A DNA stretch of 64,000 nt from assembly GCA_046052125.1 (NCBI GenBank), contig JBJOMY010000001.1, positions 704,001 to 768,000 on the forward strand, written 5' to 3'. Shown here piece by piece: positions 27,001-30,000 of the stretch. The stretch is from Cyanobacteriota bacterium. GTDB taxonomy: Bacteria; Cyanobacteriota; Cyanobacteriia; PCC-6307; Cyanobiaceae. A program made the position numbers. How positions within the stretch are numbered: position 1 is the stretch's first letter; every line of letters begins with the position of its first letter.

Positions 27001-30000
27001 CTGTGCTCGCTTCTGGATGAACGGGGCTTTACGCAAGGCGTGACGCTCTCCCGCATCCCGGACGGCGGGGATGCAGTGCTGATCGTGCAACTGAGCGATC
27101 TGCACTTCAACGAGCGGGTTGAACTGCCCTCCAACCGCTACGACTTCACCGTGGCCGCGCAGCGTCTGGCCAAGCTCGCCCAACGCGTCAAGCAACTGGG
27201 CCAGAGCTATGGCGCCCGCAAGGTGGTGGTGGCCTGCCTGGGGGATTTCCTCAACAGCGACCGGCGCCTCGATGAGCTGCTCTCCAACAGCACCAACCGT
27301 TCCAGAGCAACCCTGCTTGCCGTCGACATCCTGCGGGCGTTTCTGCTCGATCTACGCGAGCAGTTCGAGCTCGAGGTCTATGGCATCACCGGCAATGAAA
27401 GCCGCGTGAACAAAGAGCTGGGCTGGAGCGATGAGCTCGCCACCGACAGCTACGACCTGATGATCTACGAGATCCTCAAGCGCGGCTTTGCCGGCACAGA
27501 AGGGATCAACTTCTGCGGCTTCCGGGCCAATGAGCTCTTGTTTGAGGTGATGGGCCGCACCTTCCTCTGCCTGCACGGCCACCAGATCGGCGCGAACGTG
27601 CAGAAATCGGTGCAAGAGATCACCGGTAAGTACGCCGCCCAAGGCATCACGGTGGACTACACCCTGTTCGGCCACCTACACGCCAGCGCCATCGGCGACT
27701 ACCACGCCCGCAATGCCTCGCTGGTGGGCAGCAACGCCTACTCAGAAGCAGGGCTGAACTTCTGCAGCAAGGCGGCGCAGAACATCCACATCGTGTCTGG
27801 CTCCAAGGGCACGGGCGCTATCGATGGCGTGAAGGTTGACCTCCAGGACATCAGCGGGATCGAGCCCTACCCCTTTGCCGCCGAATGGGAGGCCTACTGC
27901 CCCAAGAGCGAGCGCAAGCTCCACACCCCCTCTGTCGTTTACCAGGTTGTTGTCTGATGACTGTTTCCACTCCTTCCCGCACCTGCGCCTGCGCTAGGGG
28001 CGCCAGCGGCAACACGGCGCTTGAGCTGCAGAGCGCGCTGCTCCAGGCGATCACTGGGCTCACGCAACTGGTGAGTCAGCTCAGCCAACAGTTCCCGATC
28101 ACCCAGCCGACTGCTCCTGCAGCAGAGCCCTGGATGGAGGAGCGCCCCAGCCAGGCAACCAAGCCGACATGCGTGCCCAACCTCTCAACCCTCTGGGATG
28201 AGCTGTCGGTGGTGGAACTGCGCTCGCTCTTGCGCAGCTATCCGATTGATCGCTCCTCCCTGCCAGCCCCGATCGAACTGCTGCGCCGCAGCGAGCTCAT
28301 CGAAGCCCTCAACCAAATCCAAGCCCTCGGTGCTTAAGGGGCGAAAGGCCCCTCGCGAATCAGACCCGTTCACCCATTCCACACACGCCTATGACCACAA
28401 CCCTCACCACCGCCAATCCCGCCGCTCTCGGCGAACCCATCCCCGGATCACCGGAAGCGCTGTTGCTCTTGGCCAACGCGGGAATACTGCCCGCCAGTGC
28501 CGGCGCCGACGATCCCCGCTTCTCAGCCGACGCCATCACCACCTGCGTCACCCGACTGCTCGAGGTGAAACAGCAGAAGGAACTCCTGGCCAATGAACAG
28601 AAGGAACTGAACGAACAGCTGCGCCTGGCGCACTTACGCGGTGACCTGCTCACCCTGTTGCCAGCCGGCAAGGACGGCAACGGCTATCAGATCACCCCGG
28701 ATCTCGTGCTCAACCGCCGCCCCGGCCGCAAGCAGTGGAGCTACTCGATCGACTGCAAAGAGATCGAATGCCAGCTCAAGGCACGCCAGAGCTATGAGCA
28801 GCAGAGCGGCCTCGCCAGCTACAGCCTCGGTGCAGCGTTCTGGGAGGTGCGGGCGAGCAAGGGCTGAGTCCGCACATCACGGCGCAAGTGATCAAAAGCC
28901 CTGGGTTACGGCCCGGGGCTTTTTGGCATCCAGTGTTCAGCTCCAATCAAAAACCCCCGAGCAGCGCCCGAGGGTCATTGGCTAATCACGTCGAATGAAG
29001 CGTTTGGTCTGGATCGAAGCTGCTGGCGTTGGCGCCTGGGGCCGAACGTTCCAGATGTGGGTTGGTTGGTTCTCCTGGGGCACCTATGGCGGTGCAAACG
29101 GAGTGTCGACGGTTCAGACGCACCATTCAGTGTCCGAACTGACGACCCGCCCACGGTTGGGTGAAGACTGTTGGAGCAGGGGCCTGCAGTCAGCTTGCTT
29201 CTGGCGGGTAGCGGGGTGGCGTGTCGTCCATCTGGGCGCCTCCTTGGTTGATGGACACACCATCGCGCCGCCGCTGACGCCAGGCAATCGGGATTTACAC
29301 GCATTGCCTTTGCAGCCAAGCGGGAGCAGGGTGGGTTGTTTGGTGCGTTCAGCGCAGGCAGCCGGATTTCGGGCTACACCCGTTGCCCCTCGCTCGCCAC
29401 CCTGGAGGTTCATCTCTAGGTGCAGAAACCACCCGGTTCCTCAGCTGGAGATGCGGAAGCCCTGCTTGAGCCATAGCGACACATACACCAAGGACACCAA
29501 CACCGGCACCTCGATCAACGGGCCAATCACACCGGCCAGGGCCTGTTGGGAACTGATTCCCCAGATGCTGATACAGACAGCAATCGCCAGCTCAAAGTTA
29601 TTGCCAGCTGCGGTGAAAGCCAAAGCGGATGTGCGCGTGTAATCCAAGCCGCTTCTCTTGCCTAGGGCAAATGCGGTGCTCCACATGATCACGAAGTAGA
29701 GAAGCAGAGGCAAGGCCACCCGCAAAACCTGGCCTGGATTCGCAGTGATCGCCTTGCCCTGGAGAGCAAACATCACCACGATAGTGAAGAGCAAGCCGTA
29801 TAAAGCGAAGGGAGCAATCCTGGGAATGAATCGCTCTTCGTACCAGCGGATGCCTTTGGAACGTACGCCAATCTGACGGGTCAGGAACCCAGCCACCAGA
29901 GGAATCCCAAGAAAGACCAGTACGGCTTTTGCAATCTCCCAGAAGGAGAAGCTCAGAACTTGGCTTTCAAGCCCAAGCCAGCCAGGAAGCACCTGCAGAT

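What a model noticed while it worked through the whole genome (the two positions that open the first line are those of the whole stretch)
28982..29255. Conserved SD-led tiny ORF (M-x-D-T-P-P) and supported helices in the eight Yfr103 RNA genes
G000 has eight copies and one fragment of the known, highly abundant ncRNA Yfr103. Each copy, like all 60 homologs examined, starts with a strong Shine-Dalgarno motif and a 7-47-codon ORF (usually 9-14) beginning M-x-[D/E]-T-P-P. Its stop codon lies at or inside the RNA's closing helix. The RNA has no Rfam family and is extremely abundant in freshwater and estuarine metatranscriptomes.
Evidence so far: - Copies: C1:151476-151776, 177504-177700 (truncated), 367501-367771, 638803-639062 and 732982-733255; C3:43834-44131 and 98081-98343; C4:331554-331829. 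The fragment is at C1:554661-554758. - Start codon is ATG in 57 and TTG in 3 of 60. Across the four codons D-T-P-P, 4 of 240 cells have first- or second-position changes and about 67 have minor third-position variants. A 3-nt indel keeps the frame. - GGAGG lies upstream of only 64 of 1666 genes. - Covariation is 0.149 against 0.086 shuffled (0 of 500). Eleven of 15 hairpin pairs and one closing-helix pair (AU 24, GC 9) are compensatory. - No Rfam hit. - Depth is about 18,000-113,000 over the RNA, against 0-63 in flanking bins, in 4 studies. [...]
(Added by a program. Inside this text positions count along the whole contig: contig position 704,001 is position 1 of the stretch shown here. "Call 12" and the like, gene names such as g00115 and contig names such as C1 are that model's own, and its searches are not shown. 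The text may have been shortened before it was handed on; [...] marks where a part breaks off. The agent that wrote the report below was given it as the finding of a first reader that could run no searches.)

Follow-up and report, generated by a model that had tools for sequence, protein, structure and literature searches.

The report
Conserved tiny ORF inside Yfr103 RNA
The very abundant "non-coding" RNA Yfr103 of small cyanobacteria starts with a strong ribosome-binding site and a tiny reading frame (Met-x-Asp-Thr-Pro-Pro-Glu) that evolves like a real coding sequence, so ribosomes probably act on this RNA.

Summary
Observation confirmed. The window holds one Yfr103 gene on the minus strand, from an inferred start near 29252 to a terminator at 28949-28974. 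G000 has eight copies.

I sampled homologues with a core motif that lies outside the ORF and examined 158 hits from the same family. By the motif variant alone, 138 are Yfr103-type.
- All 138 have an in-frame ATG or TTG.
- 129 have an exact GGAGG, 4-9 nt upstream of the start.
- 127 read M-x(1-2)-[D/E]-T-P-P.

On a tree built from the downstream RNA, codon positions 1+2 of x-D-T-P-P changed 23 times in 10 columns. Position 3 changed 108 times in 5 columns.

The rival reading, GGAGG pairing with CCNCC, is not supported.
- The leader folds no better than shuffled sequences (mean z +0.23).
- U, which would complete that pairing, never occurs at the middle base (0 of 138).

The ORF ends at or inside the closing helix in 125 of 138. 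That helix is supported by covariation, and it starts 11-12 nt after Pro-Pro in 134 of 138.

Best reading: a translated mini-ORF that acts in cis through a ribosome pausing at Pro-Pro beside the closing helix. Translation itself is not shown. The RNA is published. The ORF is not mentioned in the one paper I could read.

The parts
29283..29308 (-). Imperfect palindrome GGCAATGCG...CGATTGCC upstream of the promoter. It is probably the 'conserved imperfect palindrome' that Hou 2016 place at -29 to -58.
   Evidence: Read directly. Present in 5 of the 8 G000 copies.
29259..29264 (-). -10-like hexamer GATGGT. In the 138 homologues its second base is A in 132 and its last base is T in 131.
   Evidence: Column counts (columns 12-17). 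Assigning it as the -10 box is inference.
29252..29252 (-). Inferred transcription start: the A of the conserved CATC. It lies 7 nt after the -10 box and puts the palindrome at -31 to -56.
   Evidence: Inference. Not mapped experimentally for this genome.
29239..29243 (-). Shine-Dalgarno GGAGG, 7 nt before the ATG and about 9 nt (29244-29252) after the inferred 5' end.
   Evidence: Exact GGAGG in 129 of 138 homologues. Only 0-4 parsimony changes per column.
29190..29231 (-). Tiny ORF ATG GAC GAC ACG CCA CCC CGC TAC CCG CCA GAA GCA AGC TGA, encoding MDDTPPRYPPEAS. The Pro-Pro codons are at 29214-29219.
   Evidence: Codon-type conservation.
29191..29201 (-). 5' strands of the closing helix: GAAGC (29197-29201) and GCUG (29191-29194). 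They overlap the last ORF codons and the stop codon.
   Evidence: helices 1 and 2.
29165..29184 (-). Core motif GGCCCCTGCTCCAACAGTCT. It includes the 5' strand of helix P1 and was used as the ORF-independent probe.
   Evidence: Found in 330 of 401 genomes of the family, and almost never when the pattern is read backwards as a control.
29080..29095 (-). Conserved hairpin GCACC-loop-GGUGC.
   Evidence: helix 6: 99.8% of cells paired, one pair alternating UG 62 / CG 52.
29016..29043 (-). 3' strands of P1 (GGCCCCAGGCGCC, 29031-29043) and of the closing helix (CAGC 29022-29025, GCUUC 29016-29020).
28949..28974 (-). Intrinsic terminator: hairpin CCCUCGGGCGCUGCUCGGGGG followed by UUUUU. With the inferred start, the RNA is about 304 nt long.
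   Evidence: Read directly. Conserved in 4 of the 8 G000 copies. The 3' end is predicted, not mapped.

Best explanation
This is a gene for the known, highly abundant RNA Yfr103, and its 5' end is a real, translated mini-ORF.

**Proposed steps**
1. A ribosome loads at GGAGG, about 9 nt from the inferred 5' end, and starts at the ATG.
2. It decodes M-x-D-T-P-P-(E/Q/N/G/R).
3. It pauses at Pro-Pro, a motif that needs EF-P.

**Geometry.** The closing helix starts 11-12 nt after the second Pro codon. A ribosome with that codon in its P site would sit right against the helix without opening it. It would also cover the RNA's 5' end.

**Likely effect.** The effect is probably in cis. The parked ribosome could shield the 5' end from RNase J or RNase E, which would help explain the extreme abundance. 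Ribosomes that read on to the stop, which lies inside the closing helix, must melt P0 and P1. The fold of the roughly 170-200 nt core would then depend on translation status.

**Shown here:** the anatomy, its conservation, the codon-type substitution pattern, the supported helices, the fixed spacing, and the presence of efp and RNase J in G000.

**Inferred:** translation itself, the pause, the footprint geometry (recalled ribosome dimensions), the protection and the switch.
For: **Sampling blind to the ORF**
- The probe was a core 20-mer lying 3' of the stop.
- Of 158 hits examined, 138 are Yfr103-type by the motif variant alone.
- All 138 keep an in-frame ATG (135) or TTG (3).
- 129 have an exact GGAGG, 8 have a 4-mer of it, and 1 has neither (GGGGG).
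- SD-to-start spacing stays at 4-9 nt despite many indels.
- 127 of 138 read M-x(1-2)-[DE]-T-P-P, and 135 keep Pro-Pro.

**Codon-type substitution pattern**

Fitch changes on a tree built from the downstream RNA:

| Codon | pos 1 | pos 2 | pos 3 |
|---|---|---|---|
| x | 2 | 8 | 32 |
| D | 1 | 1 | 16 |
| T | 3 | 5 | 18 |
| P | 0 | 2 | 22 |
| P | 1 | 0 | 20 |

- The five most variable of these 15 columns are exactly the five third positions, in the frame set by the ATG. That arrangement is 1 of 3003 possible.
- All four Thr codons are used, three Pro codons at the first Pro and all four at the second. The few amino-acid changes are D to E, N or G and T to S, A, N, I or D.
- My rough nonsynonymous-to-synonymous rate ratio from those counts is about 0.08.

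**Frame-keeping events**
- One-codon insertions in L149, L150, L167 and WH7803.
- In L240 the ATG has become ACG, and a new ATG lies 3 nt upstream in frame.

**Spacing and helices**
- The Pro-Pro to closing-helix spacer is 12 nt in 106 and 11 nt in 28 of 138.
- Its sequence is free, with 26-42 changes per column.
- The closing helices are supported.
- The stop lies inside (103) or abutting (22) the closing helix in 125 of 138.

**Context**
- G000 encodes efp and RNase J.
- PPE is listed among EF-P-dependent pauses in E. coli (PMC4140641, Table 1 passage).
- Initiating ribosomes at a strong SD block RNase J1 on B. subtilis hbs mRNA (PMC5737220, abstract in the search listing).
- RNA-run contigs carry other strains' versions of the ORF joined to the core..TPPQHL-stop and ..TPPEQQIEKH (table 7).
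Against: - There is no ribosome profiling, toeprint, reporter or peptide evidence. Translation is inferred from sequence evolution alone.
- In thermodynamic folds of 116 full-length homologues, the SD is mostly paired. Its mean unpaired probability is 0.24, against 0.43 for the whole RNA. In 67 of 129 leaders the MFE pairs it with the Thr/Pro/Pro codons. The site may therefore be masked in the mature RNA.
- The residue after Pro-Pro varies (E 95, Q 13, R 9, N 9, G 9, H 2, D 1). PPQ occurs in both pausing and non-pausing sets in E. coli, so pause strength is uncertain.
- Two of three frames are closed anyway by conserved structural elements (UAG before GAAGC, UGA in CUGA). The position of the stop is therefore weak evidence.
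- Exceptions exist. L052 has a different 5' leader without this ORF, L058 reads MEAPP-stop, and L256 and L272 have decayed SD and Pro codons.
- An ORF-less paralogue shares the core, so the core can work without the ORF.
- Translating the cell's most abundant RNA would be costly.
Confidence: 0.5

Rival explanations
1. Dual-function RNA. The ORF is translated, and the released peptide of 6-14 residues (usually 13) with the conserved N-terminus M-[DE]-D-T-P-P-E is the active product, working in trans.
For: The same coding-type conservation applies. The N-terminus is acidic and conserved across low-GC and high-GC lineages. The very high RNA level would give a very high peptide output.
Against: Only the first 6-8 residues are constrained. 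From the third codon after Pro-Pro onward, all three positions change freely (40, 42, 35 changes). Length runs from 6 to 31 aa, with 106 distinct peptides among 138. The C-terminal 'G-A/V-R' of high-GC forms is dictated by the closing helix. Forms of 6-8 aa persist, including in G000 (MDDTPPR).
Confidence: 0.2
2. An RNA-only element. GGAGG and CCNCC(U) would be conserved as an SD/anti-SD-like intramolecular pair, or as a seed for pairing with other RNAs. On this reading the 'ORF' is a by-product.
For: GGAGG can pair with CCNCC. The MFE does so in 67 of 129 leaders, and the SD is predicted mostly paired. Anti-SD-like seeds are known in cyanobacterial sRNAs such as Yfr1 (recalled, not checked here).
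Against: - The leader is no more stable than dinucleotide shuffles: mean z +0.23, with 1.6% below -2.
- The base opposite the A of GGAGG is never U (0 of 138, despite 22 changes at that column), although U would complete the helix.
- The next candidate pair (base after the SD with the Thr wobble) forms in only about 61 of 138.
- SD variants are not compensated (L156, L185, L188, L263).
- Pairing does not explain the invariant in-frame start, the GAY codon with C/T wobble, the frame-keeping insertions, or variation at exactly every third base.
Confidence: 0.12
3. A ribosome-binding stabiliser only, like STAB-SD. A 30S or 70S ribosome bound at the 5'-proximal SD and AUG protects the RNA, and the identity of the codons read does not matter.
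For: A strong SD lies about 9 nt from the inferred 5' end. RNase J is present. There is precedent in B. subtilis hbs mRNA (PMC5737220 abstract). The cryIIIA STAB-SD is recalled; PMC4113751 was seen only in the search listing.
Against: It does not explain purifying selection on D-T-P-P at the amino-acid level, with near-free third positions. It also does not explain the fixed 11-12 nt distance from Pro-Pro to the helix.
Confidence: 0.1
4. Chance or artefact. A short open frame in a GC-rich RNA, inflated by related sequences.
For: Short frames stay open easily. The sequences are kin and include paralogues, and the tree is imperfect.
Against: The pattern holds from genomes of about 1.1 Mb to 3.9 Mb across many genera. 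There are 112 distinct SD-to-codon-8 haplotypes and 16-32 independent third-position changes per codon. None of the 12 ORF-less paralogues or the 8 unrelated motif hits shows the pattern.
Confidence: 0.02

Closest known systems
Yfr103 ncRNA of marine picocyanobacteria (Hou et al. 2016, PMC5069720: section 8 and Table S2 read. Voigt et al. 2014: not held, not seen)
   Same: - Multi-copy paralogues: 8 in G000, against 7 in CC9605.
- Length about 300 nt.
- An upstream imperfect palindrome.
- Presence in Synechococcus-type and small low-GC genomes.
- A copy in strain WH7803, which the paper names, carries the same core and ORF (L032).
   Different: The paper calls it a non-coding RNA of 'enigmatic' function. 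In the parts I could read it does not mention an SD, a start codon or an ORF. This copy comes from a 65% GC genome, and its RNA is found in freshwater, river and estuary runs.
Proline-codon leader ORFs mgtP and mgtL in Salmonella mgtCBR and mgtA leaders (PMC3641672, PMC5299641 and PMC6460261: abstracts in the search listing)
   Same: A very short ORF with consecutive Pro codons sits next to alternative RNA helices. Ribosome progress, which depends on EF-P and Pro-tRNA, decides which structure forms.
   Different: Those ORFs lie in mRNA leaders and control a downstream coding region by attenuation. Yfr103 ends at its own terminator with no downstream gene, so whatever is regulated would be the RNA's own core or its stability.
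5' stabilisers: initiating or stalled ribosomes at a strong SD that block RNase J1 (B. subtilis hbs, PMC5737220 abstract in the listing. ermC leader and cryIIIA STAB-SD: recalled; reviews PMC3997798 and PMC4113751 seen in the listing only)
   Same: A strong SD close to the 5' end, in an organism with RNase J, on an unusually abundant RNA.
   Different: STAB-SD needs no start codon or defined peptide. Here the start codon and five codons are under amino-acid-level selection.
Dual-function sRNAs such as SgrS/SgrT, RNAIII/delta-haemolysin and SR1/SR1P (recalled, not checked here)
   Same: A structured regulatory RNA that also carries a small translated ORF.
   Different: Those peptides are 26-43 aa and conserved along their length. 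Here only the first 6-8 codons are conserved, and the ORF runs into the RNA's closing helix.
Short regulatory or arrest leader peptides such as the cat and erm leaders (recalled)
   Same: Only a few N-terminal residues matter, and the ribosome stalls at a defined codon beside an RNA structure.
   Different: Those need a drug as co-inducer and free a downstream RBS. No downstream RBS or gene exists here.

Membership tests
Yfr103 ncRNA family | Several paralogous copies per genome | tested here: met
   Eight copies and one fragment in G000. One to ten motif hits per genome in 330 of 401 family genomes.
Yfr103 ncRNA family | Homology to a copy in a strain named in the paper | tested here: met
   The Synechococcus WH7803 locus L032 has the same core motif and the ORF MTADTPPEPTQEAR. 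WH7803 is listed in PMC5069720 section 8. No published Yfr103 sequence was available for a direct alignment.
Yfr103 ncRNA family | Length 290-328 nt from start site to end | tested here: inconclusive
   About 304 nt from the inferred start (29252) to the predicted terminator end (28949). Both ends are inferred.
Yfr103 ncRNA family | Imperfect palindrome at -29 to -58 | tested here: met
   The palindrome at 29283-29308 lies at -31 to -56 from the start set by the -10 box. It is present in 5 of the 8 G000 copies.
Yfr103 ncRNA family | Very high RNA abundance | tested here: inconclusive
   Contigs of four metatranscriptome runs from four studies cover 28994-29240. Contig depth is summed over organisms and cannot measure expression.
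Translated small ORF | SD at working distance from a start codon | tested here: met
   GGAGG in 129 of 138, spacing 4-9 nt, ATG 135 and TTG 3.
Translated small ORF | Codon-periodic substitutions that spare the amino acids | tested here: met
   23 changes in 10 first and second positions, against 108 in 5 third positions. Codon tables.
Translated small ORF | Direct evidence of translation (ribosome footprints, reporter, peptide) | not testable with these tools
   Only contigs of RNA runs were on offer.
EF-P-dependent XPPX pause site | Consecutive Pro codons in a pausing context, with EF-P present | tested here: inconclusive
   Pro-Pro in 135 of 138. PPE in 95. PPE is listed among E. coli EF-P-dependent pauses. 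efp is present in G000. Pausing itself was not testable.
Attenuator-type leader ORF (mgtP/mgtL, trpL kind) | A regulated gene downstream on the same transcript | tested here: not met
   A terminator at 28949-28974 is followed by a convergent plus-strand ORF at 28391-28867. It may work like such a leader, but it is not a member.
STAB-SD / 5' ribosome stabiliser | SD-type site near the 5' end that raises RNA stability, in a cell with a 5' exonuclease | tested here: inconclusive
   The SD lies about 9 nt from the inferred 5' end. RNase J is present. The effect on stability was not testable.
Any Rfam family | Match to a covariance model | tested here: not met
   0 matches at E<=1 in the window at 27000-31000. 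0 matches at E<=0.1 on 11 loci.

The most novel reading that the evidence does not exclude
The most abundant transcript of marine and freshwater picocyanobacteria may not be non-coding. It may be a ribosome-engaging RNA. Its 5' mini-ORF (M-x-D-T-P-P-E) would park a ribosome at Pro-Pro, one footprint away from the closing helix.

The RNA would then work as a sensor or buffer of translation status. Candidate inputs are EF-P, Pro-tRNA and temperature. It could also act as a ribosome-parking device. Each ribosome that reads through would remodel the conserved core.

The ORF-less paralogue found here would be the translation-independent form of the same core.
Probability: 0.3. Interest if true: 0.85.

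Novelty: new variant of a known kind. Interest (0 to 1): 0.7.

Why it matters
Hou 2016 report that Yfr103 makes up more than half of the mapped primary-transcript reads of Synechococcus CC9605 in the sea. They call its function enigmatic.

A conserved, coding-type mini-ORF at a fixed distance from the closing helix gives the first concrete handle on mechanism, namely that ribosomes act on this RNA. The open question becomes a set of simple tests:
- toeprinting or ribosome profiling;
- SD and AUG mutants;
- synonymous against missense recoding;
- efp depletion;
- RNA half-life.

If it is translated or stalled on at this abundance, it would also matter for how these globally important phototrophs spend their ribosomes.

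Tried and rejected
- **Covariance model.** I used a motif search instead.
- **15-mer scan.** A 15-mer scan of all genomes was swamped by chance hits in unrelated bacteria. Only 30 of 118 loci carry the SD + start + Pro-Pro pattern upstream. These were used as a side sample only.
- **Depth along the RNA.** In one search the ORF part has far lower summed contig depth than the core, and nothing is laid beyond 29241. Depth is one figure per short contig, summed over organisms. The core is shared by many strains while the ORF tail differs, and loose ends at 29194/29195 show other strains' versions. This therefore says nothing about processing or about the 5' end.
- **Adapter junction.** A single X1 contig shows an adapter junction at 29241, at depth about 1. 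It is too weak to use.
- **CC9605 start sites.** Table S2 gives the positions of the seven CC9605 start sites. The sites could not be placed relative to the SD.
- **16S rRNA 3' end.** A short recalled motif for it was not found in G000. The rRNA may be unassembled, or the motif may be inexact.
- **Literature not available.** Voigt 2014 is not held. The PDF with Figure S3 of Hou 2016 is too large to read.
- **Searches for other names.** Two searches for another name for this RNA gave nothing relevant.
- **The 114-aa frame.** The frame at 28975-29319 on the minus strand starts upstream of the inferred transcription start. I took it as a by-product of the 65% GC content and did not test it in the homologues.
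Full report
**What is in the window**

The feature lies on the minus strand. Reading 5' to 3', it holds:
- an imperfect palindrome, GGCAATGCG...CGATTGCC (29308-29283);
- a -10-like GATGGT (29264-29259);
- the conserved CATC, whose A (29252) I infer to be the transcription start;
- GGAGG (29243-29239);
- a 7-nt spacer;
- the ORF ATG GAC GAC ACG CCA CCC CGC TAC CCG CCA GAA GCA AGC TGA (29231-29190), which encodes MDDTPPRYPPEAS;
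- a structured core;
- a terminator hairpin with a U-run (28974-28949).

The ORF is listed inside a longer GTG frame. From the inferred start to the terminator the RNA is about 304 nt.

The neighbours are an SBF-family transporter gene upstream on the same strand and a convergent ORF downstream. No gene follows on the same transcript. Rfam has no match at E<=1.

**Copies in the genome**

BLAST also finds the fragment at C1:554669-554791.

The eight peptides are MDDTPPRYPPEAS, MEDTPPEQPVGAR, MDDTPPEQLTGAR, MADTPPQQQI, MADTPPEQQIEKHR, MDDTPPEHQPGVR, MADTPPQQQQKQR and MDDTPPR. Six end at the same conserved TGA, and two have an earlier TAG.

**What is published**

Only one paper in the held library names Yfr103: Hou et al. 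2016, PMC5069720. I read section 8 and the rows of Table S2. The paper reports:
- seven paralogues of 290-328 nt in CC9605;
- 55.2% of that strain's mdRNA-Seq reads;
- homologues in marine Synechococcus and low-light Prochlorococcus;
- a palindrome at -29 to -58;
- a function that 'remains enigmatic'.

Table S2 files all seven under ncRNA. Nothing I could read mentions an SD, a start codon or an ORF.

Voigt et al. 2014 is not held, and the PDF with Figure S3 could not be read. Either could mention the ORF.

**An ORF-blind sample of homologues**

To avoid picking sequences by the feature I wanted to count, I searched with a 20-mer of the core that lies 3' of the stop codon, allowing up to 2 mismatches. 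It matched 330 of 401 genomes of the family and 58 of 64 genera. When the pattern was read backwards as a control, it matched almost never. One genus of about 1.7 Mb genomes had 0 of 29.

That call listed coordinates for about 150 of about 860 hits, leaving 710 unlisted. I took every listed hit: 30 loci and 120 fetched. With the eight G000 copies this gives 158 hits. I sorted them by the motif variant alone:
- **Class A, 138 hits:** Yfr103-type.
- **Class B, 12 hits:** a related RNA with ...CCAATAGTCT.
- **Class C, 8 hits:** an unrelated, coding-looking site with ...CCACCAGGCT.

**The ORF across the 138 class A sequences**

- GGAGG is exact in 129, a 4-mer of it is present in 8, and 1 has neither (GGGGG).
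- The start codon is ATG in 135 and TTG in 3. In four of the ATG cases the ATG lies one codon further upstream.
- SD-to-start spacing is 4-9 nt, although the spacer has had many indels.
- 127 of 138 read M-x(1-2)-[DE]-T-P-P, 134 keep [DE]-x-P-P, and 135 keep Pro-Pro.
- The eleven that depart carry single changes: T to I, D, N, A or S; D to N or G; P to L, S or Q. Two of them (L256, L272) also have a decayed SD.

Codon usage:

| Codon | Synonymous forms | Other forms |
|---|---|---|
| Asp | GAC 115, GAT 17 | GAA 2, GAG 2, AAC 1, GGC 1 |
| Thr | ACC 56, ACG 43, ACT 29, ACA 3 | 7 |
| Pro (first) | CCA 78, CCC 34, CCG 24, CCT 0 | 2 |
| Pro (second) | CCT 93, CCC 27, CCG 11, CCA 6 | 1 |

The next codon is GAG in 95, CAG in 13, CGC in 9, AAC in 9 and GGT in 8.

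**Allowing for relatedness**

I built a tree from the downstream 230 nt only. I then counted Fitch changes per column of the 5' alignment.

| Element | pos 1 | pos 2 | pos 3 |
|---|---|---|---|
| start | 4 | 4 | 0 |
| x | 2 | 8 | 32 |
| D | 1 | 1 | 16 |
| T | 3 | 5 | 18 |
| P | 0 | 2 | 22 |
| P | 1 | 0 | 20 |
| +1 | 13 | 6 | 13 |
| +2 | 19 | 10 | 27 |
| +3 | 40 | 42 | 35 |

The five bases of GGAGG changed 4, 2, 3, 0 and 3 times.

- In the five codons x-D-T-P-P, the five most variable of 15 columns are exactly the third positions, in the frame set by the ATG. That arrangement is 1 of 3003 possible.
- From these counts I estimate a nonsynonymous-to-synonymous rate ratio of roughly 0.08.
- The tree is imperfect because of paralogues and possible gene conversion. 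This inflates all variable columns alike and does not create a period of three.
- The core motif next door shows no such period.

**Frame-keeping events**

- L149, L150, L167 and WH7803 (L032) carry one extra codon (M-T/S-V/A-D-T-P-P).
- L240 has ATG changed to ACG, with a new ATG 3 nt upstream in frame.
- L237 has two ATGs in tandem.
- No sequence has a frameshifting indel between the start and Pro-Pro.
- L214 has one extra C in its C-run and reads MDDTPP-stop.

- Leaders (from 10 nt upstream of the SD to the closing helix) fold no better than dinucleotide shuffles. Across 129 distinct leaders the mean z is +0.23, and 1.6% fall below -2.
- The base opposite the A of GGAGG changed 22 times, yet it is never U. 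U would complete the helix, and CCU is the commonest codon at the second Pro.
- The next candidate pair forms in about 61 of 138.
- SD variants are not compensated.
- Pairing cannot explain the start codon, the Asp codon or the frame-keeping insertions.

Two results favour some masking of the site:
- The MFE pairs the SD with the Thr/Pro/Pro codons in 67 of 129 leaders.
- In full-length folds of 116 homologues the SD has a mean unpaired probability of 0.24, against 0.43 for the whole RNA.

The site may therefore be partly masked in the mature RNA. In some high-GC copies the MFE pairs the SD with the 3' strand of the closing helix instead.

**The helices**

On a 114-sequence alignment I counted 23 pairs in six helices that I named from the first fold.
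- 94.7% of cells pair, against 26-44% when the partners are slid.
- The covariation score is 0.179, against 0.134 shuffled (0 of 500).
- Nine pairs have changes on both sides.

The closing helix has two parts.
- G[A/G]AGC pairs with GCU[U/C]C. Pair 60/422 is GC in 57 and AU in 53.
- GCUG/CUGA pairs with CAGC/UCAG.

In P1, pair 82/404 is CG in 83 and UA in 21.

**Where the ORF ends, and the spacing**

ORF length is 13 aa in 91, 9 aa in 21, 14 aa in 9, 8 aa in 7, more than 20 aa in 4, and another length in 6.

| Stop position | Count |
|---|---|
| Inside the closing helix | 103 |
| Directly abutting its 5' strand | 22 |
| Further upstream | 9 |
| Beyond, in the core | 4 |

This is weak evidence on its own. 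Conserved structural elements (UAG before GAAGC, UGA in CUGA) close two of the three frames anyway.

The spacing is more telling. The distance from the end of the second Pro codon to the first base of the closing helix is 12 nt in 106 and 11 nt in 28 of 138. The spacer sequence itself is free, with 26-42 changes per column.

**Mechanism: inferred steps**

From recalled ribosome dimensions, the mRNA is enclosed to about +12 to +15 nt from the first base of the P-site codon. A ribosome with Pro6 in the P site and codon 7 in the A site would therefore abut the closing helix without opening it. It would also cover the roughly 9-nt 5' tail.
- Pro-Pro-X sites need EF-P. PPE is listed among EF-P-dependent pauses in E. 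coli, while PPQ occurs in both pausing and non-pausing sets (PMC4140641, passages).
- G000 has efp and RNase J.
- Initiating ribosomes at a strong SD are reported to block RNase J1 on B. subtilis hbs mRNA (PMC5737220, abstract in the listing).
- Pro-codon leader ORFs that set RNA structure are known in Salmonella mgt leaders (abstracts in the listing).

I therefore propose a cis-acting mini-ORF. A paused ribosome caps and protects the 5' end. Ribosomes that read on to the stop melt P0 and P1, which ties the core's fold to translation status.

This may work like an attenuator leader, but it is not a member of that class, because no downstream gene exists.

**RNA evidence**

All 24 runs offered were contigs, from 18 studies. 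I laid four runs from four studies.
- Their contigs cover 28994-29240, including the ORF.
- Contigs that leave the window sequence at 29194/29195 continue with other strains' versions of the ORF: ..ACT CCG CCT CAG CAC CTG TAG, and ..ACC CCA CCC GAG CAG CAG ATC GAG AAG CAC.

The ORF is therefore part of RNA contigs in the environment. Depth and ends cannot be read from contigs.

**Side sample**

Among the exact 15-mer hits, 30 of 118 loci carry the SD + start + Pro-Pro pattern. Of 15 listed loci with cyanobacterial titles, 13 carry the canonical ORF. L058 reads MEAPP-stop, and L052 has a different leader without this ORF.

**Background SD use**

G000 is 64.7% GC. GGAGG lies within -18 to -4 of the most upstream start of 69 of 3015 ORFs of at least 200 aa. 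Counting any in-frame start gives 390.

**Verdict**

The RNA family is known. The conserved, coding-type mini-ORF and its fixed distance to the closing helix appear to be unreported in what I could read. Translation, pausing and any effect on stability or folding remain to be shown.

Noticed in passing
L192, L202, L204, L207, L210, L215, L224, L255, L261, L269, L273, L275 (motif at about 351-370 of each locus): An ORF-less relative of Yfr103. It shares the core (..AGCCCCUGCUCCAAUAGUCUC.., GCAUCG..GAGGUGCCC, GGCCCCAGGNGGCUCUGAC). Its P1 is lengthened to GUCAGAGCC/GGCUCUGAC, and it has a different 5' part with no SD, ATG or D-T-P-P. There is one per genome in 12 larger genomes, no Rfam hit, and none in G000 within 3 mismatches.
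   Followed up: partly
class A alignment, first Pro codon (window 29217-29219): The first Pro codon is never CCU (0 of 138, despite 22 changes at that base), while the second is CCU in 93. CCUCC would be a perfect complement of GGAGG. CCC/U-C is also reported as a frameshift-prone sequence in E. coli (PMC8129111 abstract), yet CCC-C is common here (34). The cause is open.
   Followed up: partly
window 29197-29201 and 29016-29020, and homologues: The 5' strand of the closing helix (G[A/G]AGC) looks like an SD, and its 3' strand (GCU[U/C]C) looks like an anti-SD. In some high-GC copies the MFE pairs the real SD (UCGGAG) with that 3' strand (CUCCGA). This suggests a possible alternative fold.
   Followed up: no
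L024, L030, L042, L073: Complete Yfr103 5' regions lie on contigs of MAGs labelled Klebsiella, 'uncultured bacterium', Rubripirellula and Mesorhizobium. These are most likely picocyanobacterial contigs placed in the wrong bins.
   Followed up: no
L279:330-590: One IMG/VR viral contig (32 kb) carries a full Yfr103 copy with GGAGG, the ORF MEDTPPEQTPGAR, the core and a terminator. It is nearly the same as the copy in L277. It could be a phage-borne copy or a misclassified genomic island.
   Followed up: no
L052 and L058: There are two departures among loci with cyanobacterial titles. L052 has the core but another 5' leader without M-x-D-T-P-P. L058 has lost the Asp/Thr codons and reads MEAPP-stop.
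   Followed up: no
G000 C1:177581-177715 and C1:554669-554791: There is a truncated copy that keeps SD, ORF (MADTPPQQQI) and core start but diverges after about 115 nt. There is also a 3' fragment. Weak 3'-end and terminator matches also lie at C1:175089-175179 and C3:40832-40876.
   Followed up: partly
L201, L203, L208, L212, L216, L223, L226, L228: Eight hits to the probe motif (..CCACCAGGCT) lie in a conserved region unrelated to Yfr103 that looks coding. They were set aside by the motif variant before any ORF count.
   Followed up: no
window 28893-28918 (+ strand): A second hairpin with a T-run (AAAAGCCCTGGG..CCCGGGGCTTTTT) follows the convergent ORF at 28391-28867. The two genes end tail to tail, each with its own terminator.
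   Followed up: no
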